This document shows, one piece after another, positions 4,731 through 50,187 of a stretch of DNA of 64,000 bases. Position 1 is the stretch's first letter; each line of letters opens with the position of its first letter. Below the pieces are notes generated by a model that made no database searches, was not told the origin of the DNA, and saw only the letters and a program-made list of their open reading frames with translations. This stretch comes from Lingula anatina. Its lineage: Eukaryota > Animalia > Brachiopoda. The stretch lies in NCBI GenBank assembly GCA_051362555.1, contig CM120646.1, positions 20,088,001 to 20,152,000 on the forward strand, in the 5' to 3' direction. The translations under genes and the position numbers were made by a program.

Positions 4731-7700
4731 GCCAACAGGTGCTCTCCTGGTCAAGAACACATCTGCCCACACCCTGGACAAGAGATATTTTGGTGGGGGC
4801 ACAGTGGCTATGAATCTACCTGGAGAGAGAACACATGCCAGCAGCCCTGATCTAGCTCAAAGGTTGGTTACACACTGAATTTTTTATATTAATATTACTT
4901 TTCATCTATATCCCTTACTGTACTTATTAAATGATAATGTAGGTAATGTCTTCCTTGTGAGGCCACAAAGTTATTAGGAAAAAGTTAGCACATTATCTCA
5001 ACTGTATGTGCAAAAATTCCTAAAACACTTGTATAGAATGGCTGTTTGTGATCAGTATATGATACACAGTGATGAGTAGACTAGTGGAGATAATTCAGAA
5101 TTGTAGTCATAAATTATCATTGTGGAAGACAACCTAAACCAGTTTTCTCCCTATACAATGTCTACCGGTGTAACAGTAACATGACCAGCGTCTGTTCACT
5201 TCTCCAGACAGAGGACTGGTGTGAGGAATTTGTAGAGGATGTTATTCTACGTTGTAACTCCTCAATTTTTTTTACTTGTTAAAACAGTTGAAACTGAAAA
5301 AAAAAAAATTAGAAAACAGCAAAAAAAAGGAGAACAGACAGTAATTGTCAAAGTACCAGTTTACAAGTTCCTAATTACATTTTTTCTTTCATTTTTTTTC
5401 TCATTGAATTGTTTTGTATATTTTTTTCTTGTTTTGTCTGACAAGTCTTTCTGCCTGCCCTCTCATCAGTATCCTTACTGACTCGTATAATAAGAGAGAG
5501 GAAACTTTGACCTTACATCTTGTTTCAGAATAAAACATGCTTGTTCTTGTCAATTACAATCAGTTTTACAATATAAGTTACCCTGCGAATGGGTTTTACT
5601 TTGAACATTGTAAAATTCCTTTTAATATAGTTGATTGGGACTTCAAAATTTTCCAGATTGAACAGATATTTTAGATTTTCATTACAATTCCACTTAAGAA
5701 AAGAAGCAATAAAAATGTTACATAATCATTATAATAATGTTGTAATAATTAAAATTTTGTAAAACGTCCAAATAGTTAATTGGTTTAAGTCAGAAATACC
5801 CATCACTAAAAAGGTGGCATAAATAAGGAATAATTTAGAAAAATTAAATGACAGGAAGAAATGAGAAGTGATAATTTTGTAGGTAAATACTGTAAGTTAG
5901 GAACTGCTGGGTGAGGAGGAAAATGTGGTCTAATGTTGAGATTGCATTAGGTGTGATGGCATTGCAGTATATTTGTTATAATGATAGTCATAGAAACCCA
6001 TATTTGTATGCACACTGGTAAATTAAAACCAGTACACTTAAACTGAAAACAGTAAGTTGTCAATTTCTTGGGCGAAATAAAGTTGGATTACTTGGTATTT
6101 AGAATATCCTCATAAACTCCTTAATATATAGCAGCTGTATGAGTAAGCTTACAGGGATAATAACTTTTCGTTTGAGATCTATATTTCACAATAAAAACGT
6201 TGTGAACAACTCATAGAAATATAATATCTTCTGTTTTACCTCAAAAACGGCAGTTATAGCTATTATTCTGATATCTGAGCTTGTTTGTAGACCATGTGAC
6301 CTCTATGGATGGCTATACTCTGTTATAATCTCTTAAGAGATTCTAACAAAAAAAAAGAAACTTTTTAGAAAAAAAAACCAGGGACTAACTTTGAATGTAA
6401 AAATGGATTAATTAACCATTAGTAAGTATGGGGAAATTGTTGTTTACTCCAGGAAAATTCATTTAATATTATCCCTTTAACAGCCTTAAATTTGCATCTG
6501 ATAGCAAGAATATGTCAGAAGAATTAACTTGTATAACTCTGATTACTTTCTTGTTTTCTAGATTTGAAGATGGTACTGTCCCATTCCTGGACATTATAGC
6601 CCTAAGACATGGATTTGATGCCTTAGATAAACTAACAGGTACATACTTTACCATTATATGGTCATTTACCCATCATTACTGAGAGCACTGGAGTATCCGA
6701 AACATCAAGATGAGTGGGTAAAAAGATTTTCCAAATTCCTTCTCTCCCTCTGAAGTTATGTTTGTTAAAAATGTGCTGTGCTTTGGGACACTTTGCAGTG
6801 TTTGTATGCATGGGCCTCTGATCATTTATTTTCTGCTGTTTGTCAATGACAGTGGGGTTGGGGTGGAGGAGGTGTGGAAAGCTGAATCCACCATTTTGTT
6901 CTGAAAAAGGAGAAAGAGGAGTGAAAAGATAATTCATACCCATTCTGTTCCTTGGTCTCAGGTGGAATGGACATAGTGTCCAGTCACGTCTTCTCTCTGG
7001 CCAGGTATGTCCACCACCATCTTGGCTCCTATCGCCATGGCAACGGGACCCCAGTTGTCAAGCTCTACTCAGACATGGACTATGAAGATATCGACACACA
7101 GGGCGGGATTGTTAATTTCAATCTCCTCCGAGCTAATGGTGAATATGTGGGATTTGCCGAGGTGAGGCATCCTTTGACCTTACTGCCGTTTATATCCTTA
7201 AAATGGCTGTCTATTCTAATCAAAATTTTGAGTTTGTTTTACATTGCTGTATTGATTTTGATTATCATAAGAATTTTGAAAAACATAATATTTAAAGAAA
7301 TGAAATTGAAATGAATTGACATAAAAATGATAGCACCAAGTCATTTTTCAGGTTAATAAAATGGCTCAGCTGTATAACATAGAGATCAGAACAGGCTGTT
7401 TCTGTAACATTGGTGCTTGTCAGTACTACCTGAACCTGACATCTGCTCAAATAAAGGACAATTACCAGGTGAGCGTGTTATCATCCTAGTATTGGTGCTA
7501 GCAGGACCGACACCATACTAACCTGTCCATAGCAGATATTGAATTTATTTTTGTGTTTGGCATTTATTTTAAAAAAAAACTTTATTAATTTAATTCGTAT
7601 TCATATTCATTGTGATGAAATTACTCAAGTTGAGGCCCTGTCAAAATATTTTTTTTCTAACATAAAGAGAATCAATCATGCATGTATATTTGAAATATGT

Positions 7701-10700
7701 ACACTGGTTTAAAGTTATTTGAAACAAATTTTACTTTCTCAATTCAACTTATAATGTTAAAAACAAATGTTTTGCTTTTTAGTCTGGTCATGTGTGTGGG
7801 GATGACAAAGATCTAATCAATGGAGTCCCTACAGGTAGTGTTCGGATCTCTTTCGGGTACATGTCAACATTTCGTGATGCAAGAAAATTCCTGGACTTCA
7901 TCGAAAATTGCTTTGTTGAGGCTGAACCACAAATGGTGCCAATAAATTGTGGAAGTGGCCATCAGGGGATGTTACGAAATAATAGCAATCCCAGCCAAAA
8001 CGGGGATCTCCCACCAGCAGAATTCTCCCCTTCACTTAACAATCAAAATGAATCTTCAGTAATTGGTGCTACATCTGATTGTGATAGGCTCTATGCGGGT
8101 AAACAAAAAGTATTGGGACAAAATAACGATCAGTCATTTCTCTGTGATAAACCAATTGATAAAACAAAATCTCTAGTCTTTTCTGAGGAAATACCCAAAA
8201 GTCAACCTTTACAGCAAGCAGGGTCAAATTCTACTGCACAGGAACATACAAATGCATCTTATAGGTCAAGTCCCCCTTTACAGGATATTATTGTAAATGA
8301 CAAAGTGCAGTCTAACACTGGCCTGTCCACTGGGGAAAATGAGAAGGACTTATTGGCAACCAAGAGTAGTGTTGAAGACAGACAGCTTGTAGTGCCTGTG
8401 TTGGGTTGCATGGAGATGACTCTGCAATTATCCACCGATACGGAGCAGACAGAAAGGACAAAAAATGAGTCCTCTTCCCCTGACCCAGTATTACTGGCTA
8501 TTTCTGAAAGGAACAGTTCCAGGGTAGAGGCAGTTCCAGATTTCTCAGATGGAGAAGATGGACCCAACAGGATTCTGAAACGTATCTTCTTGTATCCTGT
8601 GAAATCCTGTGCAGCATTTGAGGTTAGACTTTTTTCATTCAGTTGTCAGTAATAAATTTCAACAAATAATTTGACAATGAAAATGTATCAGTCACATATG
8701 GACACATTGGTGTTATTGTCATTCTTCAGAATCTAATATAGTGTCACTATATCCTAAGTGTCCGTAAAGGTGGCACAGGTTACCATAACAACTGTCATTA
8801 AAGATATCATAGGTGTCACAGTACCATAGTCATTGTCCTGATAGTTATTACTGTTATTGTAACAGAACATTGTTACATTGTCATAATCATGGTTGAGGCA
8901 TCACTATCAGATCATTACATACTACCATTATTGTTACTGTCACAGTCTCTATATGATAAAGGCTACGTATACTGTGGTTGCAGGTATCTGAGTGGGAGAT
9001 AGGGCCCAAGGGGTTTCTCTATGACAGGCACTGGATGATTGTATCAGAGAGTGGAGTGTGTCTAAGCCAAAAGAGGGAGACCAAGTTGTGCCTCATTAAA
9101 CCAAAAATTCTGCTCCATGAACAAGTGCTTGTTCTTAATTTTCCAGGTGAGTGTTATTCTGTACCTGGGCTCTTGCTGACAGGCATTTGGTACATATTTA
9201 GTTATGCCATGTGGTTAGTCACTGTGCCATTAGTTTCAGTTAGTTGGCTTACATAAGGGAATATATTATGCGAGTCCTGAAAATGTATTTAAATATACAT
9301 GTGTTGTATAAATTCTCAATTTTAACAGAAAATTTGTTAAGTGTTGTGAAGTGTTGCCTTGTTTGATTTCAGGTCTCCAATCAGTAAGAGTTCCACTCAT
9401 CCAAAGTGACTCCAACACAGTAGACTTGAAAATGTGTCATAGTAAAGTTTGTGGAGACAGGTGAGGCATACCATTATGGTGTAGAGCATATGAGTATTGA
9501 GAACGAGACTGGGATTTAGAAAAAAATCATACAAAGAGTTTATTTGAACACAAAGGATAACTGAAAGTGATGTGTTCTCAGACCAGTTCTATAGAATAAA
9601 TTTTGTGATTACAGGATAAAGCAAATACTCAACTGCAAAATGTAATTTCTTGTATTCTCAATTGTCTCAGAATTGAAGGCCTAGATTGTGGAGAGAAGGC
9701 AGCTCACTGGCTAGCACAGGCTCTGGGAAAACCAGGTTGTCGACTTATACAGCAGTATTCTGAGGACACAAGGACTTCAAAATTACCTCAAGAAGGTAGG
9801 AGTTTCAGTTACTCGTATTACTCTTCTTTTTAAGTGTTTGCATATTATTTCTTAAAAAGTTCTGTTGCAAGAGTGAAAACTTTGTTCATATGGTTAAATG
9901 AATCAAGTAAAATAAAGCTCAACTGGTTGCTTGACCATGCAAACAATTTTGGTGAGTTTTTTAAGGTTGCCAAAATATAATTGGCCCCTAGATTGATTTT
10001 AATTTGCAAATTTCCTTTAAGATGGTGCTGGTGATGCTCAGCTTTCCTTGGCCAATGAGTCCCAGTTTTTACTGATCAACAGAAACAGTGTTTTGGATCT
10101 TATGGACAAGGTTGCAGAGAGAAATCTGTACAGTTTGGACAGTGCAGTAAGAACAACTGAAGTACATGGTAAATCATTGTTGTTAATGATGTCTTGTTTT
10201 TACCTTTTTGACTAAAACTTGGTTTACTATGTCATCTACAACTTGAAATTTGTATAATACTGTTGAAAACCTCTTAAATAATTGAACTAATTCTAAACCC
10301 TGGATCCCTGTAATAAATTTGTAGTTGTCCAGTTAGATTTGTGGGAGTAAAATGCCACATGTTTGTTTTTTAGCAGTTAAACCATGTTTGCCATTTTCCA
10401 CTTCAGATGTTGAAGCTTATGTCTGTCGCTTCCGTGCTAACTTGGTGGTGGATGGAGTAGAAGCTTTCCAAGAAGATGATTGGACAAAAGTTCAAATAGG
10501 GCAGCATGTATTCCTGGTAAAATTTTGATTATTTTCATGTGCATGATTGAGCCTTCAAGAATACCTCATGTTAAGTATTTTCCTTACACATCTTATAATT
10601 TTTTAAGTTAAATAAGAGGAACTTTAAGATCAGATTTAAGAGAGAGATAATGGCCATTCTTTCACAAATACCAAAAAGATATGAATTGTATTTAAAGAAA

Positions 10701-15417: not shown

Positions 15418-18400
15418 ATGGAGTACCGGCACTGCAGACGCCTGGTTCTGATCGTGATCTTAAGTACGCTAAGTCGAACTTTTGCAAGTAACCACCTTAC
15501 AAACAAACAGACCAGTTATATGTCTAAGTCATCTGGTCGTAATACTGAGAATGCGGTTTTAAAAGAAAACTTGAATCGCGAACAAACGGGAAAGTTTGCA
15601 GTTTTTGATTCTAAGGAGTCAAACAGCACTTACAGAGGAACAACGAAGGCTATTGTTTTGAACGACGAAGATAGCAATGACGCGTCAGGGGACGAGGCAG
15701 ACATACAGACCGCCGCCTCTGGATTCGACTTGGCGAGCCATACTTTGAAGGAAATCATCCATAAGGTGCACAGAATCGAGCAATTAGAGGAATCCCAGGA
15801 GAAAAAACTGGACAATATTTTTGCGTTTCTGGCCCAATTGGACCTCGCCCTGTCGGACATACGGGATCAAATTTCTGGTGAGAAAAGTAAAGTTTTAAAA
15901 ACTTTAAAAAGGCAGAAGTACCGAAATATTGGCACGAAGTGCACTCGTCTCGGACCTTTATCAATGTCAAACGTTTTTCCCCCCAACAAATTCAATATAA
16001 ATAGCGTAAACATTCAAGAATTCAAGTCAAATATTGCTTTATAATACCAAAAAAATCACTAATAAATATACCCAAGCCTTTCTTAGCATATTTTCCCGGT
16101 CTGTTATTTTATAATTATTTTTTTATTTACACAGATTTACCTCTGGATGTCATGCAGATTCTCAACGCCAAAAATATCATCAATACTGCTATCGTGTCAG
16201 TCCCTGTTGACAACGAAAGACAAGAGCTGAGACGTCCACGGACTCAGAGTGACTTACAGCTACAACAGACGTCTTCTGAAACTAAAACCAAGTTTGGTAT
16301 CGTTCCTGCTTTGTCTGAAAGTGAAAAGCTCTCAAATGTTGATGTGTCAATAACGACAACAGCAGCATCAGTCACGACAACAGAGACTAGCCCGTCGCCC
16401 GCAGTGAAGTACAGGTCGTCAATTTATCATCTTTTGAGACAAAAAGAAACAGAAAGACTACAACACAAAGATGAAAATCGTCGTCAACCGCACGAAGTAG
16501 TAGAGCAACAGCAACAGCAGAAACAACAACATAAACAGCTGCGCAATTTAGTTCGAAATTCCCCTGTTGACCAACTGGGAAGTGGGTCTAGTAGCACGAG
16601 ACATGGGCACCGGACATATACCTCCCCCATAGCCACTGGCACCCGAAGAGCACAGAGACGCTGGCTCATCACAAAATTCGGATCACGTGAGGCAGCATCC
16701 ACGCTGAGGTCCCGAGAGGAAAAACACCTTTCAGGTAAAATCGAGCAGTAGTACTACATTTTCATTTTCAACTGCCTATGGCAAACGCCAAAAGTATAGA
16801 ATAAAACAGCAAACGTCTACTTGCACGCTGAAAAGCATAAACCTATACTATCCTTATGTTTCTGAAAAAGTCCTGAAAAAATATGTTTTTTACTTTACTA
16901 AAAAATGTTTGTTATTGCACGGGCGACTTCTTAAATGTTTGATTTTTTAAATGACAACCATAAAAAATAATGCCTGCATTACATGCAAAAGAAAGGAACA
17001 GAACCACACGCACGCATTGTCCACATCCCGATACATGTGACACGTTTCCGGTTAAAGAATTGATAGATTCTTGGCGGGGAATGCACGTGCGACCTCAACT
17101 GCTCTCACTCTACCCGTGATTATTATTATTATTTCATACTGACCCCTCCTTGGTTACTTTAGGGCACAAGTGTCCCTAGAAATACCCACCACGTTTAACC
17201 ACAACAATGCAACCCTCTGTGCCAGGATGTTTTTATGCCGTGCGTGTGTAGAGATGTGGTCAGACAAGACCCAAAGTGAACTGGAGTGGCCCAACTGTGC
17301 TTTAGCTCCAGGGTCCAGAACAAATGTATGCTTTACATCTCTGTTAAGGTAGCAAGGCGACGCAAGAAGTTTTTTTTAATCAATCTAAAGCAAATTTATC
17401 ATTTTTTTAAGCGCCACAATTGATAGCATTCAACTTTTATCTCTTATTATTTGGTTTGGAGGTGTCTTCAACAAAAACCATGGGGAATCGGGCAAAATTG
17501 TAACTGCATGTACATGCCCGTAGCCAGGGGGGTTCGGGGGGTCGAAAGAACCGCCCCTTTTGCTGGGAAAAGGTCCACTCTGGGTAAAATTTGGTCTAGG
17601 TACATAAAGTTTTTATGGGAAAAGGTCCATTTTTTCAGAAGGAGAACCCCCCTTTTGAAATTGCTGGCTACGGGCCTGATGTAGTAAAATGTTTTAGTGT
17701 TTTAACATCGCAACAGTTTGCTTGAAATCTGAATGAAAAATATAGATTAATGACTGTAATCATCCAGTTTTTAGCCTTTTTAAATTCTTACCTAGGAACA
17801 AGAAATTGTTTACATTTAAAGAAAGTAATATTCTAAAGGGGTTTTATACCATCATTGGTTACAATTTTAATTCTAACGTTTTGAAAGACCACTTATTCAA
17901 CAGAACACGATGTCTCATTTTACAGAATGCCCCAAAGGATACGACCTCCGCTACGGTAAGAGCTGCTACTACGTCAGCCCCCGCTACTCGTACACCTTTG
18001 CGTGGGAACAGGCGCGTGCGCAGTGTACGGCTCTTGAGGGGAGTCTGCTTTCAGTGGAAACATGGGACGAACACCAGTTTCTGAAAACGCACTTGAAAGG
18101 TAACACATTTTCGATATTCCGATTATTTTATCCGCATTCCTTCTCTGTACTTCTTCTCATAATACTTTAGTGATAAGATAATTCCGATTAAATGATCATA
18201 TGCTCTAGTTTGTGGCGTTTATTAAGTGCCTACAAAGCCCTACTACTGATATATTGTTTATCGGGTATGTTATTATCATAAAGTAGCATAGGTATATTTT
18301 TAAAAAAGAAAGAAATACTTTCTTATGTACATTATTCTGAAATCATTATTGCAGATCGTGAACGGTACGGCTATGTATGGTGGACAAGCGGAAAATACTG

Positions 18401-18593
18401 GCCACCAACACAACTGTTCATCTGGACAGCCAACGCCAACAGAGTGACCTACGCCGACTGGGCACAGAACGAGCCGAAGGTGCGAGAAAATCGCTGTATT
18501 ACGATGTGGAGCGGGCTCCGGTTTAAGTTCTATACAACCCCGTGTGACGTACTAATTGCTACGGCGTTTATATGCGAGGTGCATCTAAATTGA
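15418..18593 (+). CDS. Secreted protein with coiled-coil/low-complexity stalk and C-terminal C-type lectin domain (~490 aa)
   Basis: Exons 15418-15877, 16135-16734, 17926-18099, 18355-18593, all phase-1 junctions. Signal-like N-terminus MEYRHCRRLVLIVILSTLSRTFA. CTLD: CPKGY..GKSCYY..FAWEQARAQC..EGSLLSVET..EHQFLK..WWTSG..FIW..YADWAQNEPK..RCITM..PC..AFICE. Confidence 0.85.
17513..17678. mobile_element. hAT-like MITE with 5-bp TSD, copy 1
   Basis: TIR catgcccgtagccag...ctggctacgggcctg flanked by atgta/atgta. Related copies at 32244-32413 and 33631-33800. Confidence 0.75.
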
Positions 18594-19950
18594 TGATGTT
18601 AAAGGTTTCCCCAAAATCACAGCGCTACGTGGGCATCAGAATCACTGATGGCAAATCCTCGCCTTCTTCACACCCATGAACTATAGACAGCTGACTTAAG
18701 ACTACTTGCACTAGACATCTGTGCAGGAGAGTCCACATATTTTATTCAGTCATGTTGACAGTTCTTTTTCTTTTTGCAGTAAATATTGTGTTCAAACTGA
18801 TCTTTTTAACTACATTTAACACCTGCCGTTGTGTTTAGTTCTATTTATAATCAATTACTTCAATCACCTTACGGTTTTCTTCAATAATAAGTAAATGATT
18901 AAATGTTCTTATTCATTTATTCATTCATCATCCCAAGGATTAATGTTAATACACATGGTATTTAACCCTGAGCGCTGTGGTTAACTTTTTATTTTCCATC
19001 TTTTTCTTGGATATTTTGATCCACAATGTGTCTTCTCTCAAAGAATTATCTCAGCAGCTGTGGTTAGCGCTAAGGAAAAGCGACAATTTATTTTTTCAAT
19101 CAACAGTCAATACTAATACTGTTACATGTAATAACACGAGCAGATGCTCTAGATAGATATCGAAATAATGTAGGTAAACAACATTTTCAATATCAAGTGT
19201 TAGTTGAAGAAAAATTGGATGTTTTGCCCCCTCCCCTCTCTCTTTGATAGCACTGCCAGTGATGACCTCATCTGACCTTTTAATTTATTTTCGCATAATT
19301 TCATTGCGCTATTTACAGAGGTTTGGTTAAACATTATCCTGGTACCATAGGCATAATTTATAAATATAATGCAATCACGGTAAAACCCACGAGCTCTGAA
19401 GTAATCAAGGCACCCACAACCGAAACAATGGTGGTCACATTGCACGTGCCGCGGTGACGTCACTGATATGAAACTCCTCGATATTCATTGCATAATTATC
19501 AACGATAAATGCCGCAAGGAGTCACGGATCGTGACCAGGACTACAATGTAAATAAGGAAGTTGAATCTTAATATAGGTCAATGGTAAGTTAACTCTGCAT
19601 AATTGACAATAAAATTTCTTGTGTGCACGCGTGTTCGCGTGCTAGTTGAAAAACCCGTTCAGTATTTATTGGGACTACTCGACGAGGCGGAGGCAAAGGT
19701 CAAATATATCAGAAACAACACAACTCAATGATTTAAAGAATTTTTATGTAGAAATTGTCTTCATATCATTGAGGTGATATGTACATACAAACAAGGCTTA
19801 AAGGAATACAAACGGGAAAACGCTTTAAACATCTAAGCAACATCGATTAATATGTTTTATCACGGTGCGTTTACTTGCTTGTAATTTACGCGGATAAAAA
19901 TATACATGCACGTGTGTTTATTTGCCCGTGTGTATTTGGGTGTTTTCACC

Positions 19951-19988
<38 letters not shown>

Positions 19989-20345
19989 TAGAGATATATA
20001 AGAGATGTCCATTTATGCCTACGCAAAATAGTTAACAAGGAAGGCGCAAAAGGCACATTCACAAATGAAAATAAATAAAACACCATTCCTCTGAAAAATA
20101 TAAAACTAGTGTAGCAAAAGTGAAAACGTTAACTTATATATGAAAATACAAGGCAGTAATAAAGCCTTTCTGAAAAAAATATCATCATACGAATACCTTA
20201 TATGTTGCAAGAGCTACACAGCAAGTCGGCATCAATTCTTTAAACAATTAACTCAAGAACGATGGCAGTTCTAAAAAAAGTAATACAATACGGAATCAAT
20301 AGATCAATAAAGTTGACGTACATGTATAAGAAACAGCCATTAGAG

Positions 20346-21145
20346 CTACGACGATAATGACGTCACTGTCCCCCTGTGCCGATGTCTGCGTTGTTGGCGT
20401 GGAGCAGAAGTAACACTCGGTGACGGAGACGGTTTTCCCGTGGACGCCATCTTTGTCGTGGTCATCTTTGCGGAACCGCTCGTGTCTTGTGGTGAAGCGG
20501 GGGGAAAAATTCCACCAGATGGCCCTTTCTTTCCTGCTAAATTCGGACTGAGTGCTTTCGCAGACGATGGAGTATTTGCCGTCGAAGTTGGAAGAGAAGT
20601 TGCCGCAGATGTTGATGTCTCCAGTTTTTCCCGATCAACAGAAATCCAGTTCTTAATATGGTTGTCATAGGCGCGAATTTCATTCAGGGTTCTAATAAGG
20701 GCATGGGAGTATATTTCCATTGTACCAAGGTCCAGTGTAGAAAAAGAAATATCGGAAGGCCGTGGAAGTTTGAATGCCTCGAAAATGAGCTGAAGCTGAA
20801 AAAAAAAAAAAAAAAAAACACCTTTCAAAGTGCTCTATCAATGAATCCAAATGCAGGTAATGTGGCCCACAATTAACACTAACAATAAACGTGTTAAAAG
20901 GAAAGGGGGCTATTTAAAAATTTTGTATCAAAATAAAATTAGTTTTTTTATCGATTATAATTATATTGACGTTAATATAAAAATTTAAAGATTTAAATAA
21001 AATGAGTCGTAATTTGTAAAAATGGAGGGTCTTTAAATTACAAGAGGTGGCAAAACCTTGAAGAAAAAAATATTTTAACGAGACCATTACGTCCACGTCC
21101 GCGTCACTCTTGACGCCGTATATTCGACAGAACTATTTATTTGCG

Positions 21146-21199
<54 letters not shown>

Positions 21200-21764
21200 G
21201 TTCACCTTATCAATTCCCACCGCCAAACTTCCATTGAGTGAAAGTGTCTTCTCCTGGAGGTCTTTGGCATAACTTGGTAGAGTGATGTTGAGAAGATTTT
21301 CAATCGTCTCTCTCCATCCCATCACATTCTGGTACACGCAGGTCGTCTTAAGCTATAAAATATATTTAGATAGTAAATATGAATGTAAACAAAGTCAAAA
21401 GAAAAGAACACCAAAGCATTTCACCTTCAAAAATAGAATTTAAATTCGGACAAAATTAAAAATTATGCAAACGTGTGCACTTAATTATGAATTAGGAGAA
21501 ACAGGTCCTAATACAATGTTGTATTTATAAATTAAAACATATGCAGATAAAGTGCATCGTTTAATGTTATATGAAAACGAATTACAAGAAGACCACCCTA
21601 AATCACATCATAATTGTTTATGTACGTAGTAACTAAACTATCTAATGGAATGTAACGAGAAACAGTTTCATTTTTATACATTTATTTGATCTTTGTTAAA
21701 CCCGAGATGGTAAAACAATTTGTTTTTTTTTGTAAATTATTATTATTATTGTTATTATTATAAA

Positions 21765-21817
<53 letters not shown>

Positions 21818-23363
21818 GACAGCCCCTGTCACTGATAGGTTAAACAATTAACCTCTAATTAAATGGCCTCAGAGTCCTGACAAACAAAATATTTATAATA
21901 AACAACTAAAAATCGCGTTTCAAAATATAAATTCATTTATTATTTAAAGGCAACCATTTCACAGATAGCGTAGAACAAAAACGGTGACCTGAAATTACCT
22001 TTCCTGGAAAATTTCAACTTCGGGTTTGAAATTTGAAAAATCTTAATATTGAGACAATCCCTTACCTGAGCGTCGCAGGAAGGCGTGGTTGCGGGCAGAC
22101 ACTCCGGCCGGAGCTGGTCACTGGTCTGAGAAACAGACGTTGTCACGTCCCACGGAAGGCAGTAACTGCCCACCATATTCTGGAAAAAAAAAACCCACAA
22201 ATATACAGATTAGGTATAGTTTAATTACACGTAAAGGAAGCGAAATAAACACGAGGGATGCATTTAGCGAGTTTATCTGGCGTAGAAGTCACCATCCATT
22301 TAAATGAATTTTCACTTTTACATCAATTTGCAGTTTTCTTAATTTGTAGAGAGATCTGTTATCTGTCGTGCTGGACCTCGAATTTCAGAATTTCTTAATT
22401 TTAATTTATAACTAATTCTTGTTAAGGCTTTATGAATAAATAACCCTTCTTTTTTCCCTATAATTTGTAGGGTCAAATTTTACAGTTTTGTCGTTGAGCG
22501 AGTCTTGCCATTTATTACTTATGCTACTTAAACACACTGTTTTAAAATCGAATAAAGTTCAAAATTAACACTTAGCATCGCTATGCAGTGGTGCGGTGTT
22601 GGTATGGAATATAGAAAATGTTGATGTTATTGTTCTTAATGACACATTATTTATGTCTGATAATCTACATGTTAAATGAATTACACGTAGTGCGATTTGA
22701 AATGATTATCAAAATATGAGCAGAGAAAACAACCGTCCATAAGTTTTGAAAAAGATTTTAAAACAACAGATACGCCTCATTTGTGAAGGGAATACGCCAT
22801 TTGAGATATTTTCCGATTGTTTTTTTCACGTATTGTCATGAAAATGGATATTAATCTTTTTCACGAAATTTACACACAACGTCCAGATATAAAGAAAAAC
22901 AAATAAATTCTTTGATAAAAAAATAACCAAGTTTCTAAAATATATCATTAAAACAGGTCTATTGGCATAATTTTAATTAAAAATAAATTTGAAAATTCCA
23001 CTTTCTTTTCCTGCGCTTGAGATTGTCGCAGGGAAATTTCAGCAGGTTGAAAGTTCAAAAATGAAGAAGCTGCATCATTTCGGATCTGAAGCATTTTTGG
23101 ACATTCTATCCGACCATATCAAAAATACGTGAGAATGGTCATTCACGCTCACCTGGACTGTAGGCAGGGTAAGTAAGGCGTCGGACTCGCCTCGGATCCG
23201 TGTCCACACTCGGATAAAATCGTTAAAATACGAACGTTGTCGAAGTCGTGAGATGCTTTGATCGCCATCTGGTTTCTTCGGAACCGGTTTGCAGTCTAAT
23301 TCCGCCACAAAGATCAGCAGCAGCTGGATGACTTTTTCTGGAATAATGATAGATCCAGACCAT
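20346..23363 (-). CDS. Putative secreted long-chain four-helix cytokine-like protein (IL-6/G-CSF-like architecture); start uncertain
   Basis: Exons (minus): ~23337/23363-23153, 22179-22066 (114 nt), 21352-21206 (147 nt), 20795-20346, joined by three phase-0 GT-AG introns. Signal-like KVIQLLLIFVAELDC, four amphipathic segments, four Cys in the mature part, S/T/P-rich basic tail. The gene itself is well supported; the cytokine call is inference. Confidence 0.65.
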
Positions 23364-23593
23364 ACTGAACTGGAATTGACTCATTCAGAAATGAAGAAAA
23401 TGCCACAATTTTAGAAAGAAAAGATCAGTTCAGAGCTGATACACGTGCGATTTCACCAACCCAGCTACACAGGGCAGGCAAAGTTGCCTGGGTCCTGTCC
23501 CGCCCGGTCCTGAAGACTAGTTCCCACTCACCACTGGCCGCTTTAAAACCACCTGCTACTGTTCCTCATGTACAGCGGTACGTACATGCGTAT

Positions 23594-23596
<3 letters not shown>

Positions 23597-23638
<42 letters not shown>

Positions 23639-23647
23639 ACCAGAGAG

Positions 23648-23699
<52 letters not shown>
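23597..23699. repeat. Compound (CA)n/(GA)n microsatellite
   Basis: Seen directly; lies upstream of the cytokine-like gene. Confidence 0.95.
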
Positions 23700-23818
23700 T
23701 TCCCCAAGCGTAAAACCTTAAACCTGCCTGTGATATGTTATCTCCTGTAAAAGCAGCCAACTTACAGTACTCTAAAGCTGCCCCGGTGTATAATATGACA
23801 AATTCAAAGTAGCAGTCG

Positions 23819-24033
23819 CTTTCACAAATATTTCACAAATATATTGCCGGGAACCTAATTGAAGTCTAGAAGTTCCGGGTCGTGATGTACAAATGCCCCC
23901 CATGTCGAGAACAAATTAGTTTATCGCTCATATGTATCTTTCTTAGAATTTGACTATTCTCAGATACACATATGTATCATTGGAATTTCCCGAGGAACTG
24001 GGAGACGATTTTTCAATTTACAGAGCGACGTCA
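23819..24033 (-). promoter_or_regulatory. Cluster of C/EBP-like, GAS-like, NF-kB and CRE-like motifs upstream of the cytokine-like gene
   Basis: On minus: TTGTGAAAG/TTGTGAAAT (23819-27, 23830-38), TTCCCGGCA (23845-53), GGGAAATTCC (23982-91), TGACGTCG (24026-33). Confidence 0.4.
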
Positions 24034-26522
24034 TTTGCCTGCCTGGGGCGTCTAAGTGACCTGTTGGGACGAAAACGGGACAGCGCGTTTGTGTAATCTT
24101 ACCTGCCGTCGCAGTCTAAAAGGTAAGAAACAATAAACACCTGGAAACACCTAAGAAACAATAAACACCTGGCTTTTTACGATTTAGTAAGTTTGCGTAG
24201 TCGGGTTCGATATATTTTTTAATGAAGCGTAAAAATCCTGGATATGACAATTAAATGCATTATAAATTTAGTTCTTCAAAACTCATTTTATTAAAGAACA
24301 AGGGGCAATAATTTGGAATTCGAAGTTATTGTTTCATAGCTTTAGACTAGTTTAGCAGAGGAGTAAAAAGTACGATTGCAATATTGTGGCAACTTAGAAA
24401 TAGCAAATATAACACTGAATAGTCTCTATCCGAAGTCGCGCAAACAACATTTTTTTTTCGAAGAACCAAAATATTTTTATTACAGTTTAGACCATGTTTT
24501 CTTTCTAGTACAGCTCCAGGCTGTCGTTATGTCTAACATTTTTTTTAGATAAACTGTAGAAATAAACCGCAATTACACGTAGACCACACTTTACTAGCAT
24601 ATAATCTATGATTGATTTGAATTTCTCACTCAACAGCTGACCTTTATTCTGTCTGTCGGAACTGGTATTTGTCGTTTTCGGGAAATATTACAGTATGGAG
24701 ATAAGAAAAAAAAGCATGTGCGCTGATGCCAACGCCAAGACTGGTTGACAGACTTCCCCTTTACCAAAGCCGTAAATTTTATAATGTGAACTATTCTCTG
24801 ACGCACAGTGCAGAAAAATCCATCGTTTCACTAGAGACATGGTCTATATCCGTGAATATCCAGTAAAAATCATCCTGTAGCCCCAGGAGAGGGTAATAAC
24901 AGACTGAGGCACGCGATTGACCCCTGGTAAAGTGAAGCATTAAGCATAGAGCATCTAGCAACATGTCCTACCCTGGCTCCGTGTATTATCTTGTCTAAGA
25001 CCAGCCAAGAATTACGTAAACTATTTTGATTAAGGCTTCTATTCGAACTATACCTCTGCTTATCACGTTGTGTTCTACACGTTGTGTCCTTCTTATACAT
25101 TTTGGTTTTTGTTTAATTTGATCACCCTGCACCGATTCGTTTGCTTGAATGACTTATGTCAAGATAATTATGATCATAATAGAAATATATAATAACAATG
25201 ATTTTGTAAGAAAAAAGTAAACATGACACTTAAATTAATAAAGATGAATGGAATAATAAAAAACAAAGTATATCCAAGCTTACCATATAGCATTGCGCCA
25301 GTCCCTTTTATACGTTTTCTTTCTTTGTAATGGAACTTATGTCCAAAAATAAAATTCTGCAACTGATTATGTTTTCATTTCATGCTATATTTATATACCC
25401 AGCGCATACAAAAAAGGAAGCACCACGGGCATTTCTCATTGTATTTAAATAATTGAAAAATAGTTACATGTTTACGAAAAAATGCTATTCCAAAATCAAG
25501 GATGTCGTGATGTGAGGAGAATAAAACGTGTAATTATCACGTCTGATCTCAGACCAAATATTTAGGACTGATCGGAAACAAAAGTTCGCGAAAGATCAAC
25601 TTATAGAAGGAAATCTTAAAAACTTGACTGAAAATCCTATAGATGAGAATTAAATCGCAAAAACGTGTAGCAAATTATATCGAATATTCGAGAAAATGCA
25701 AATCAGCTCCTGACAACAAAACATTCGCATTACGCGTTTGTTGGAACTATGATGATGATACAAATTTACATTCAAACAAAACAAATGAATTCCCAGTACG
25801 TACCAACTTTCATCGTTCCGTAAGAGATGGATCTTCAGCGGACCAATATGCTATTCAAACTAGTAAATAAATAAATCTTTGCTCGTATTAAGAAAATTAT
25901 GCTTATAGCTTGAGCTTGCTTCATTTATATAGGCTCCAAATATACCCACCCAATGAGGTGTGATGTCAATTTAAGAGGTTTTGATCACTTTCTAATTTCC
26001 ACCGACATTTCCCGGTCTCAGGTGACACGATGCGGTGACTATTCATTATCTTCCCTGGGATTCCCGCCGCCAGAGTGGACCTAAGGACCACTTGAGCGGC
26101 CATATTGGAGCGAGGAGGGCAAAGTTAGTTGCGCGACAATGTTGATAAGAAACCCACGTGTCTATCCCGTTGTGTTAAAGTGTACACGGCGCTTGAAACT
26201 TTTTTTCCGCCTTTATTAATGACCAGTCTTGTATATCAGAAACTCTCCTTTAAAACAAGGGAAAACGATAGTTAAAGAGGACGCAAAACCAAAGTTTGGA
26301 AGTCGCAGTCCCTCTCCCCCCTCTCCAGATAAAATACAGAATATAAATAGAAAAAATAGATTTAAAAAAAAAAGGATACGGCATATGCAGTATCGTGTTA
26401 AGAAAAGTATACCAAAGTATGAACCTTAATCAACAGTAAAATAAGTAAAATAAAATTACTACCAAATTTATACCACGTGTTGCATATATTATATAGTTGA
26501 AATACACTGTATTATCCGTATT

Positions 26523-36674: not shown

Positions 36675-38517
36675 GAGCCCTGCTAATGAATCTGTAAACA
36701 TTATAATTGAGATAAATTATTTCTAAATCTTCCATCACCAAGAAGACTTACCCTGAGTGTATTTGACATCTGCTTCACCTGGCTGCATATTTGCTTTCTC
36801 CGCTAGCTTGTCCTGTATTACCCATAATGCTCCTCTTGCAGACTGACTGATATCGTCTATTGGACTGGCGGCAGTCCTTTCTAGTACTAAAATACACATA
36901 AAAGACAATAAATATATTACTTGGTTTCACAAAAAGAATGTGTAAGTTTGTACCAAAAACACCGTAAGGCTGACTCTGGGATGTTGATCTGAGGAACAAA
37001 TGTGGCCATACGGCGTAAAGTGGTGTGAACTGTTTAACAGATAAGACAAGAAATAAGAGACAAGAAACACCACAAAAACTGAAAACAAAAAATTTTCCAC
37101 ACTCCTGGCCACTATGTATGGGTGCCAAGAGTGGGGAATGTCCTGTGCCTCTCTTGCAGTACTAGGAACACACACTAGCTATGCACACCCCATGGGGTTA
37201 TCTCACATTTTAATGAGTGAATGAATAAAAAAAGTAAATGAATATATGAATAAATTATATCAATAAATAGATACATGAACAGATGAATGAACAAATCAAT
37301 TGAAATATTGCATATTGTAAAAATCTATGTTCAACTTGTTATTACTCAATATAATTTAATGCTTCAATCCTATAATTGTAATCCTATCTACTGAGTGTAT
37401 ATTTTATTGAAACAACAAAATCTCATTTTCACACAAGTAACAAGGAAAATTCTTCAAAAAACATCAATTTGGAAAAGGACATCCCCACTGCTGCCCCACC
37501 TTCCATTAGGCCTGGTTCATCTCGTATCTTCTGTTTATTTTCCTCACTGAAGGCCAGAGTCCAGACACACTGAGCCGCCAGGACTTGCTCCGCCTTCGAA
37601 TTCTCCGGCCTCAGAAGCTGGACGCAGCTCGGAAGAATGCCCCCCTCCACCAATTTCTCTTTGTTTGCATCATTGGAGGCCAGTTTGTTCAAGGCATGCA
37701 GTAGCTCACTTGTTCTATACCCAGATTTCACAGAATAGTGCTTGTCATTTGCTAATGTGCCTTTTAACAGCTCAATCATGAAATGAATATTAGCATCACT
37801 GGCATTCAAGATATCATTTTCAGCTTCAGTCGTTATATAAGCCAAAACAAAAAGAGTTTTGGTTTTAATTGTCAAAAAAGTCGTTTGTAGAAATCTGGAT
37901 AATATTTCAAGGGTATTTGCATTTCTAAATACTTGGGCACTTTCTGGAACGTTTTGGGAGATATTATGGTACATTCCCAAAATGGCCTTTACCAGAAAGC
38001 GTGAGTAGTCAGTGGTTAACTCGTTGGGTGCCAGGCGCTCATCCTGCAGGATTCTTAACGTGAGTTCAATGATTCCTACTTCTATAGCCTTTGTACAGCA
38101 TTCGGGTCCCCTATCAGTACAGTTCCATATGATCCCCATGGCAACCTTCATGTTCGTCATAGCATCGGCTGACCCTGAAATAACAAAGAACACACATCTG
38201 CAATATTCTATCGAGAAAGAATTAAGTTTTTTTCTTTGATCAACAGCTAAATAATGAAATTGATTATCTCCAATACTTGAAAAAAAATTACTTTTTTCTT
38301 ATAACATAACACAGTTGATGCAATTCTTTTCTGAGCTACTGAAAAAGTATTCAAATCTATTTATCTCACAGAAGTCACTAAAATGCAAGATTTACACTAA
38401 GTCTAGCTTATTAGTAGTTTCCATATATTTTCATAAATAATATTTAAGCTAAAATGAAGTAAAAAACATTCAAATATCCTTTTATCCATTTATTATGACT
38501 TGACCTGAAGATGTGAA

Positions 38518-43782: not shown

Positions 43783-49590
<5,808 letters not shown>

Positions 49591-50187
49591 ATGCTACTGA
49601 CGGAATGCTGGCTCTTCACACACAGACCTTTCGTCTCTTTGTTTGTGTGTATTTAAATTCTTAAATTGGATACATTTAGTTTTGGACTTGAAAACCTCGT
49701 TATCGTTGCTTGAAATCCATGAAAGTTTTTGAACGATTTACTTCTCATTAACCATTTTCTAAGACAATCGTAAATATGCTTTTCAATATGTTGATTACCT
49801 CGTTTACAGGAAGAAATATCGTAAATGTGTACAGCACATACCAGTATTATATATTAATGAGTAAGCACTATCTTTTGATTTATGGGCGTAAATAGATACT
49901 ACTAAACTTGAAAAGTTTATACTGAGGGACGGATGTGATCATTCCAGTTTAATCAAATACGGCATAGACAGGGACTTCGTGTTACATTGTTGTCATATCA
50001 AAGACTGTATTCGTTTAAATGTTATTTATTGTTTTAAGATAACATTAAGTTAAAGACCTAGATAAGGTCTGTCTCTAAATATAGAAAAAAAGACACTGAA
50101 TCCGTTTCTACAATCATATTTATTAGTCGTTTCCATCTCGTGTTATTGATGTTTGTCCTGTATCACGTTTTCATTCCGTTGAACTTG

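What the first reader, a model, noticed from the sequence alone, without database searches (positions are those of the whole stretch)
20346..23363. Candidate invertebrate IL-6/G-CSF-family four-helix cytokine with IL-6-sized exons
Seen: four minus-strand exons joined by three phase-0 introns encode a signal-like stretch, then helix A-like SYFNDFIRVWTRIRGESDALL. A 114-nt loop exon follows (NMVGSYCLPW..ECLPATTPSCDAQ), then a 147-nt exon with two amphipathic helices (LKTTCVYQNVMGWRETIENLL..SYAKDLQEKTLSLNGSLAVGIDK). The last exon contains EIYSHALIRTLNEIRAYDNHIKNWI. Recalled knowledge: human IL6 coding exons are 19/191/114/147/168 nt with phases 1,0,0,0; a Cys pair straddles the 114/147 junction (LPKM..GC..|ETC); helix D reads TTHLILRSFKEFL. 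Here the two internal exons are exactly 114 and 147 nt, LP..C..|..TC straddles the same junction, and YSHALIRTLNEI resembles the helix D motif. Inference: this could be a JAK/STAT ligand for an invertebrate gp130/Domeless-like receptor, a class usually missed by sequence search. The ORF track only shows it as four fragments.
Basis: partly seen in the sequence, partly recalled or inferred. Interest (0 to 1): 0.9.

Follow-up and report, generated by a model that had tools for sequence, protein, structure and literature searches.

The report
Brachiopod IL-6-like cytokine gene candidate
An unannotated spliced-looking gene in a brachiopod (lamp shell) likely encodes a secreted immune signal shaped like interleukin-6, which would be a candidate for the JAK/STAT trigger that surveys report as missing in such animals; its fold and its transcript are untested.

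Summary
The exons are there: minus-strand exons of 212, 114, 147 and 450 nt with AG/GT ends and three phase-0 introns, GC 0.45-0.61 against 0.25-0.31 in the introns. The neighbouring gene is Lingula anatina LOC106161607, so this is brachiopod DNA. Correction: the ATG at 23363 is one base out of frame. The gene needs either a small upstream phase-1 exon (layout 1,0,0,0) or a 1-nt indel. For an IL-6-like cytokine: a C-x7-C-x6-G-W-x2-T-x3-L motif across the 114/147 junction, four helix slots with long-short-long loops, a signal-like stretch, and kB, CRE, STAT and AP-1 sites within 700 nt upstream (1 of 1266 windows). Against: the strict IL-6/G-CSF signature fails, no relative was found, the spliced protein was not folded, no transcript was seen, and it carries an extra Ser/Thr/Pro tail. 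Verdict: likely a secreted long-chain four-helix cytokine (0.6), not filed as an IL-6/G-CSF family member. This scan noted similar genes before in octopus and annelid DNA (unchecked AI notes).

The parts
23153..23364 (-). First identified coding exon (212 nt if the acceptor at 23365 is used; begins in phase 1). Encodes a hydrophobic signal-like stretch (VIQLLLIFVA), a Pro/Lys linker and the predicted helix A (about 23257-23171)
   Evidence: donor 99.8th percentile, acceptor 86th
23333..23363 (-). Out-of-frame ATG at 23363 (A at -3, G at +4) and a five-A run at 23337-23333; site of the possible 1-nt indel in start model B
22066..22179 (-). 114-nt phase 0-0 exon: Pro-rich predicted AB loop with three Cys
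   Evidence: acceptor 99.5th, donor 100.0th percentile
21206..21352 (-). 147-nt phase 0-0 exon: C-x6-G-W motif, predicted helices B and C around one Pro, two N-glycosylation sequons
   Evidence: acceptor weak (70th percentile)
20346..20795 (-). Last exon: end of helix C, CD loop, predicted helix D (20729-20598), then a disordered Ser/Thr/Pro-rich tail ending in an Arg/His cluster and TAG
23351..24050 (.). Cluster of consensus-like sites: CRE 24030, kB 23986, STAT 23944, two C/EBP-like 23834/23823, AP-1 23380; candidate inducible promoter or intron-1 enhancer
   Evidence: only 1 of 1266 windows holds all classes; patterns written after I had read the region
25804..25813 (-). Candidate small first coding exon (10 nt, phase 1), TATA-like box at 25931, kB-like 26061 and CRE-like 25964 upstream; start model A
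   Evidence: donor 96th percentile; untested
25284..25293 (-). Alternative candidate small first coding exon (10 nt, phase 1), TATA-like box at 25397; start model A
   Evidence: donor 99.3rd percentile; untested
19917..19922 (-). First AATAAA after the stop; one ATTTA (20076) lies before it

Best explanation
This is a brachiopod gene with IL-6-sized internal exons that likely encodes a secreted, long-chain four-helix cytokine, which would be switched on by infection or injury and would signal through a Domeless/gp130-type receptor to JAK/STAT. Shown: exon chain, phases, open frame, Cys/Gly motif at the 114/147 junction, upstream site cluster. Predicted: helices in exons 4 and 5 and a disordered tail. 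Inferred: secretion with cleavage after the Cys that ends the hydrophobic stretch; an up-up-down-down bundle (long AB loop = 114-nt exon, short BC loop, long CD loop); a disulphide across the junction like IL-6 C73-C83 and a second one inside the AB loop; induction by Rel, CREB/ATF, AP-1 and C/EBP with STAT feedback; an O-glycosylated tail whose basic end holds the protein on matrix heparan sulphate or is cleaved off. The start is either a 10-nt upstream exon (phases 1,0,0,0) or the ATG at 23363 with a one-base error in this sequence.
For: Exons and phases; GC contrast. Motif C-x7-C-x6-G-W-x2-T-x3-L against the published C-x9-C-x6-G-L-x2-[FY]-x3-L (PMC3271213, PMC5716431, passages); a relaxed version occurred in 106 of 200000 shuffles of the 184-residue core, and in 32 of 200000 when tied to the junction (pattern relaxed after seeing it). 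Four Pro-free amphipathic slots with Pro-rich loops: 76 of 20000 shuffles reached the mean hydrophobic moment, 15 the helix-versus-loop contrast, 0 both (slots set by eye). AlphaFold2 on exon 5 alone: helix 2-7, loop, helix 23-66 at pLDDT 86-95, disordered tail; exon 4 alone helical. kB+CRE+STAT+AP-1 in 1 of 1266 windows, directly upstream; random placement gave this at that place in 1 and anywhere in 120 of 20000 trials; mammalian IL-6 promoters hold FOS, CEBP and REL sites (PMC5716431, passage). Long loops are what the up-up-down-down topology needs (PMC7378365, passages). Lingula has a STAT (PMC13203501, passage).
Against: Strict signature not met. No relative: 0 of 19 and 0 of 31 candidates for exons 5 and 4, which also means no deposited Lingula protein holds these exons although the neighbour is annotated. 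No IL6/IL11/LIF/Unpaired Pfam hit on any exon; no relevant PDB sequence hit; Atlas uninformative. No in-frame ATG in the first identified exon. Acceptor of the 147-nt exon is weak. Exon 4 folded alone as one continuous helix, not a B-C hairpin. The 3' region is not AU-element rich (one ATTTA before the first AATAAA; background 3.5 per kb). No transcript evidence and no receptor was examined.
Confidence: 0.6

Rival explanations
1. A real secreted helical protein with a mucin-like tail that is not a class I cytokine (for example a lineage-specific matrix or shell-tissue protein, or a class II IFN/IL-10-like fold, which also has phase-0 introns); the IL-6 likeness is coincidence.
For: No homologue or family hit; signature fails at three points; tail of 94 residues is 47% Ser/Thr/Pro (44 of 94); exon sizes within two codons of 114 and 147 would arise about 1 time in 100 for phase-0 exon pairs under an assumed length curve; lancelet and lamprey IFN-like genes are all-phase-0 helical cytokines (10.64898/2026.05.30.728932, section 5).
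Against: Exact sizes (about 4 in 10000 under the same assumed curve), the Cys/Gly motif at the very junction, the long-short-long loop order and the upstream site cluster would all have to be chance; class II cytokines have five or six helices and lack this motif (recalled).
Confidence: 0.2
2. A cytokine-type gene that is disabled in this haplotype: the ATG at 23363 is the old start and a real frameshift near the five-A run has killed it.
For: The ATG has a strong context and its frame reads ten codons ending in Arg-Lys just where the hydrophobic stretch begins in the other frame; no deposited protein; both candidate upstream exons are 1.9-2.4 kb away while the site cluster is proximal.
Against: All later exons are stop-free with intact splice sites and coding-like GC; a phase-1 acceptor sits exactly one base before the ATG, as expected for a five-exon gene; single-base errors in homopolymer runs are common in assemblies (general knowledge); low-level inducible cytokines are often missed by annotation (general knowledge).
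Confidence: 0.12
3. Chance open frames between chance splice sites in intergenic DNA.
For: No transcript, homologue or annotation; two of the four acceptors are weak.
Against: GC steps at each exon edge, three donors above the 97th percentile in one consistent phase, 306 stop-free codons, confident helix D.
Confidence: 0.05

Closest known systems
Vertebrate IL-6 and G-CSF (IL-6/G-CSF/MGF family, Pfam IL6; class I long-chain helical cytokines)
   Same: Internal exons of 114 and 147 nt in phase 0 (IL6 sizes recalled; five exons confirmed in PMC3271213, PMC5716431, PMC6389648); Cys pair across that junction followed by x6-G and a Leu seven residues later; helix A in the preceding exon (PMC7284502 passage places IL-6 helix A in exon 2); signal-like N-terminus; Rel/AP-1/C/EBP-type upstream sites.
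   Different: Cys spacing 7 not 9; Trp for Leu and Thr for Phe/Tyr; three Cys in the loop exon; ~90-residue Ser/Thr/Pro tail with a basic end; no detectable sequence similarity; first exon not established.
IL-23 p19 and IL-12 p35 alpha chains
   Same: Recalled: p19 has four coding exons in phases 0,0,0 with a 147-nt third exon, the layout of start model B; p35 has two loop cysteines about 20 residues apart, the second followed by Leu-Pro, as in the 114-nt exon here.
   Different: Not tested with any tool; these chains need a soluble receptor-like partner, for which there is no evidence here.
Insect Unpaired (Upd1-3, Aedes Upd-like), ligands of Domeless
   Same: Invertebrate secreted JAK/STAT ligands described as IL-6-like and infection-induced (10.1101/2025.09.21.677592 passages; PMC7378365 passage).
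   Different: No Pfam Unpaired hit on any exon; Upd is not known (recalled) to share the IL-6 exon sizes or Cys motif.
Thrombopoietin and oncostatin M (tail only)
   Same: Recalled: four-helix domain followed by a glycosylated Ser/Thr/Pro-rich region (TPO) or a basic cleavable C-terminus (OSM).
   Different: Resemblance of architecture only; not tested.

Membership tests
IL-6/G-CSF/MGF family | Signature C-x9-C-x6-G-L-x2-[FY]-x3-L | tested here: not met
   Found C-x7-C-x6-G-W-x2-T-x3-L; signature from PMC3271213 and PMC5716431. Those and PMC6389648 note that fish members deviate too.
IL-6/G-CSF/MGF family | Match to the Pfam IL6 profile | tested here: inconclusive
   No hit at E<=10 for 5 of 5 exon pieces; only 38-149-residue pieces were scanned, not the spliced protein.
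IL-6/G-CSF/MGF family | Five exons, intron phases 1,0,0,0 | tested here: inconclusive
   Phases 0,0,0 shown; a phase-1 acceptor and two candidate 10-nt first exons exist but none is shown to be used. Phases recalled.
IL-6/G-CSF/MGF family | Exon 3 and 4 sizes near 114 and 147 nt | tested here: met
   114 and 147 nt; the vertebrate reference sizes are recalled, not found in print.
Class I long-chain helical cytokines | Up-up-down-down four-helix bundle | not testable with these tools
   Only single exons were folded; the spliced chain was not modelled.
Class I long-chain helical cytokines | Four long amphipathic helices with long AB, short BC, long CD loops | tested here: met
   slots were chosen by eye and exon 4 alone gave one unbroken helix.
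Class I long-chain helical cytokines | Cleavable signal peptide | tested here: inconclusive
   Ten-residue hydrophobic core, Kyte-Doolittle peak 2.4; no signal-peptide predictor was run and the start codon is unresolved.
Class I long-chain helical cytokines | Binds a class I cytokine receptor and activates JAK/STAT | not testable with these tools
   No receptor sequence was fetched; no genome is held for this window.
Unpaired (Pfam Unpaired) | Profile match | tested here: inconclusive
   No hit on exon pieces.

The most novel reading that the evidence does not exclude
A brachiopod keeps an IL-6/G-CSF-type cytokine gene whose 114/147-nt exons and junction disulphide date from the last common ancestor of protostomes and deuterostomes; it is the inflammation-induced ligand of the lophotrochozoan Domeless/gp130-like receptor, and IL-6-type cytokines are bilaterian, not a jawed-vertebrate invention.
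Probability: 0.4. Interest if true: 0.88.

Novelty: new variant of a known kind. Interest (0 to 1): 0.66.

Why it matters
Two recent surveys state that IL-6-family cytokines are confined to vertebrates although molluscs and other invertebrates have the receptor, JAK and STAT (PMC13203501, 2026, which screened Brachiopoda; PMC12284397, 2025; passages). A lophotrochozoan gene with IL-6 exon geometry gives a concrete ligand to clone and assay, and a search rule (exon sizes, phases, junction Cys motif) for animals where sequence search fails, as was done for lamprey and lancelet interferons. If it holds, the gene architecture is more than 550 million years old.

Tried and rejected
Homologue searches with exon 5 (first 62 residues; 0 of 19 candidates) and exon 4 (0 of 31); the exons of 212 and 114 nt were not searched there. 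The HMMER search of 50%-identity representatives never ran (queue full on ten tries). Metagenome scan: 1 locus of 427 pattern matches, L001, a 19-residue match inside an intronless ORF next to an RNase III-like ORF; rejected as chance. PDB sequence search: one Kelch-type designed repeat protein for exon 5 (chance), none for the other three exons. ESM Atlas: dynein clusters at 0.81 for exon 5; short hypothetical clusters at 0.95-0.96 with low recognition for exon 4; both uninformative. Foldseek of the exon 5 model against PDB: 0 matches at E<=0.001, 3 at E 6-8, as expected for one helix. Complex prediction with four exon-coded pieces: no answer, score 0.02; no evidence either way. No paralogue in the window by tblastn and no repeat copy of 19500-26500. 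Rejected starts: ATG 23384 (would need an intron of about 28 nt), ATG 24034 (weak donor), donors 24103 and 23532 (strong but no in-frame ATG; possible non-coding exon ends). Literature searches for IL-6 exon sizes found nothing.

Full report
Source and setting. An ARM-repeat exon at 37432-38298 matched one protein, LOC106161607 of Lingula anatina, at 99% identity; its cluster has 4 members, 3 named Lingula anatina, and its exons map at 41318-33067 on the minus strand. The window is therefore brachiopod DNA. The candidate lies between that ARM-TIR gene (Pfam) and a plus-strand C-type lectin gene ending at 18593; it is intergenic and has no paralogue in the window.

Observation. Three GT-AG introns of 973, 713 and 410 nt join exons ending at 23153, 22179-22066 (114 nt), 21352-21206 (147 nt) and 20795-20346, all in phase 0, giving 306 stop-free codons from 23362. 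Exon GC is 0.45-0.61, intron GC 0.25-0.31. All three donors and two acceptors rank at or above the 97.7th percentile of the window's GT or AG sites; the acceptors at 21352 and 23364 rank only 70th and 86th, and the 147-nt exon fell below my own enumeration threshold (matrix from recalled frequencies).

The start is not. The ATG at 23363 is one base out of frame and stops after 46 codons. Two models remain. A: the AG at 23366-23365 is a phase-1 acceptor and a small first exon lies upstream; between 23400 and 27000 only two ATG-donor pairs fit with a donor score of 1 or more, at 25813 and 25293, each with 10 coding nt. This gives five exons with phases 1,0,0,0, the layout I recall for IL6 and CSF3. 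B: the ATG at 23363, which has A at -3 and G at +4, is the true start and there is a one-base indel before the hydrophobic stretch; its frame reads ten codons ending in Arg-Lys at a five-A run (23337-23333), exactly where a signal peptide's basic n-region would meet the hydrophobic core. This gives four coding exons in phases 0,0,0. The indel could be an assembly error or a real lesion. Without reads I cannot choose.

Protein anatomy (numbered from 23362). A ten-residue hydrophobic core (Kyte-Doolittle peak 2.4) ends near Cys24. Pro-free runs are 32-66, 104-133, 135-167 and 171-225; prolines crowd the 114-nt exon, the start of the last exon and the tail. Four helix slots (40-64, 112-132, 136-157, 184-208) have hydrophobic moments of 0.33, 0.33, 0.27 and 0.39; of 20000 shuffles of the core, 76 reached the mean moment, 15 the helix-versus-loop contrast and 0 both (the slots were set by eye, so this overstates the case). 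AlphaFold2 without an alignment gave, for the last exon, helix 2-7, a loop with two short turns, helix 23-66 at pLDDT 86-95 and a disordered tail, and for the 147-nt exon one helix 2-47 at mean pLDDT 75, without the B-C turn I expected at its single Pro. The order long loop, short loop, long loop is what an up-up-down-down bundle needs, and IL-6 has a short helix in its CD loop (PMC7378365, passages). Mature-region cysteines are 77, 97, 105 and 113; two N-glycosylation sequons lie in the 147-nt exon; the last 94 residues hold 44 Ser, Thr or Pro and end in an Arg/His cluster.

Signature. The published IL-6/G-CSF/MGF pattern is C-x9-C-x6-G-L-x2-[FY]-x3-L, with IL-6 C73 and C83 (PMC3271213, PMC5716431; passages). 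Across the 114/147 junction this gene has C-x7-C-x6-G-W-x2-T-x3-L: 4 of 6 fixed residues, with shorter spacing. A relaxed pattern arose in 106 of 200000 shuffles, or 32 of 200000 when tied to the junction (relaxed after seeing the sequence). The strict signature is not met, so I do not file the gene in that family; fish G-CSFs also lose the cysteines (PMC6389648, passages). The vertebrate exon sizes 114 and 147 are recalled: searches, the turtle IL6 paper and its supplement (PMC7284502) did not print them. Under an assumed log-normal exon-length curve the exact pair has a chance of about 4 in 10000 among phase-0 pairs, and about 1 in 100 within two codons; this is an estimate, not a measurement.

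Upstream sites. With four generic patterns, kB (23986), CRE (24030), STAT (23944) and AP-1 (23380) fall in one 700-nt window, the only one of 1266, directly above the first identified exon; random placement of the same numbers of sites gave this at that place in 1 and anywhere in 120 of 20000 trials. Two C/EBP-like sites lie between them. I had read the region before writing the patterns. Mammalian IL-6 promoters carry FOS, CEBP and REL sites (PMC5716431, passage). The 3' region, in contrast, is not rich in ATTTA.

Searches. No relative for exon 5 (0 of 19 candidates) or exon 4 (0 of 31), so no deposited protein, Lingula's included, appears to hold these exons. Pfam gave no cytokine family for 5 of 5 pieces, PDB sequences nothing relevant for 4 of 4 exons, the Atlas noise, the metagenome scan a chance hit, Foldseek of the exon 5 model nothing. 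Short pieces of a fast-evolving family would be expected to fail these tests, so they neither support nor refute. The spliced protein was not folded or profile-searched, no transcript data were seen, and no receptor was examined; these are the main gaps.

Mechanism. Best reading (0.6): an inducible, secreted long-chain four-helix cytokine for a Domeless/gp130-type receptor and JAK/STAT, with a STAT site for feedback and a glycosylated, basic-ended tail for local retention or cleavage. Shown: gene layout, motif, site cluster. Predicted: helices. Inferred: secretion, bundle topology, disulphides, receptor, induction. Rivals: unrelated secreted helical protein or class II-type fold (0.2), disabled copy (0.12), chance (0.05).

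What is in print. PMC13203501 (abstract and passages) screened 18 phyla or subphyla including Brachiopoda and found IL-6 family cytokines only in vertebrates, with receptor, JAK and STAT in molluscs and a STAT in Lingula. PMC12284397 (passages) says leptin and IL-6 family cytokines are not found outside jawed vertebrates. Against that, a review (PMC9465101, passage) mentions IL-6 evidence in invertebrates by citation; I did not read the cited works. Insect Upd and Aedes Upd-like are known invertebrate ligands (passages). Exon-phase screening has found interferons in lamprey and lancelet (10.64898/2026.05.30.728932, abstract and section 5), and IL-1 relatives are now described in Lingula (PMC13736523, passages; it has no mention of IL-6). 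PMC4929537 (passages) gave only the class definitions. Searches for a structurally defined lophotrochozoan IL-6/Upd-like ligand returned 0, 1 (an unrelated abstract book) and 0 papers; searches listed none by title or abstract start. The library lacks most subscription journals, and preprint supplements were not seen. Earlier notes of this scan describe IL-6-like five-exon genes in octopus and a four-exon one in an annelid; none is from this genome or resembles these exons by words. They are unchecked leads, not support.

Verdict. A likely real, unannotated gene with IL-6-like architecture in a brachiopod; a strong candidate rather than a proven cytokine. New variant of a known kind; interest 0.66.

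Noticed in passing
window 41318-33067 (-): LOC106161607: ARM repeats plus a TIR_2 domain (E 4.8e-21) and a C-terminal SAM-like piece by eye; an innate-immunity-type adaptor directly upstream of the candidate on the same strand.
   Followed up: partly
window 15419-18593 (+): Secreted-looking protein with a long low-complexity/coiled N-terminal part and a C-terminal C-type lectin domain (weak Pfam hit), converging on the candidate. In shrimp a C-type lectin's coiled coil activates Domeless (PMC5645147, search listing only).
   Followed up: partly
window 43783-49600 (+): Intron-containing Hsp70 (Hsc70-type) gene (Pfam HSP70).
   Followed up: no
window about 6900-8650 (+): Exons resembling molybdenum cofactor sulfurase (weak MOSC_N hit, E 0.078; identity by eye).
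   Followed up: no
window 24115-24103 (-): A 13-nt stretch between a pyrimidine-rich AG and a strong donor (score 7.4) just above the site cluster; possible micro-exon or end of a non-coding first exon. A second strong donor lies at 23532.
   Followed up: partly
window 20795 and 20789 (-): Two good acceptors six bases apart at the last exon; alternative use would remove two residues at the end of helix C.
   Followed up: no
L001:661-1485 (-): Chance hit contig carries an RNase III-like ORF and tandem repeats, giant-virus-like by eye; unrelated to the finding.
   Followed up: no
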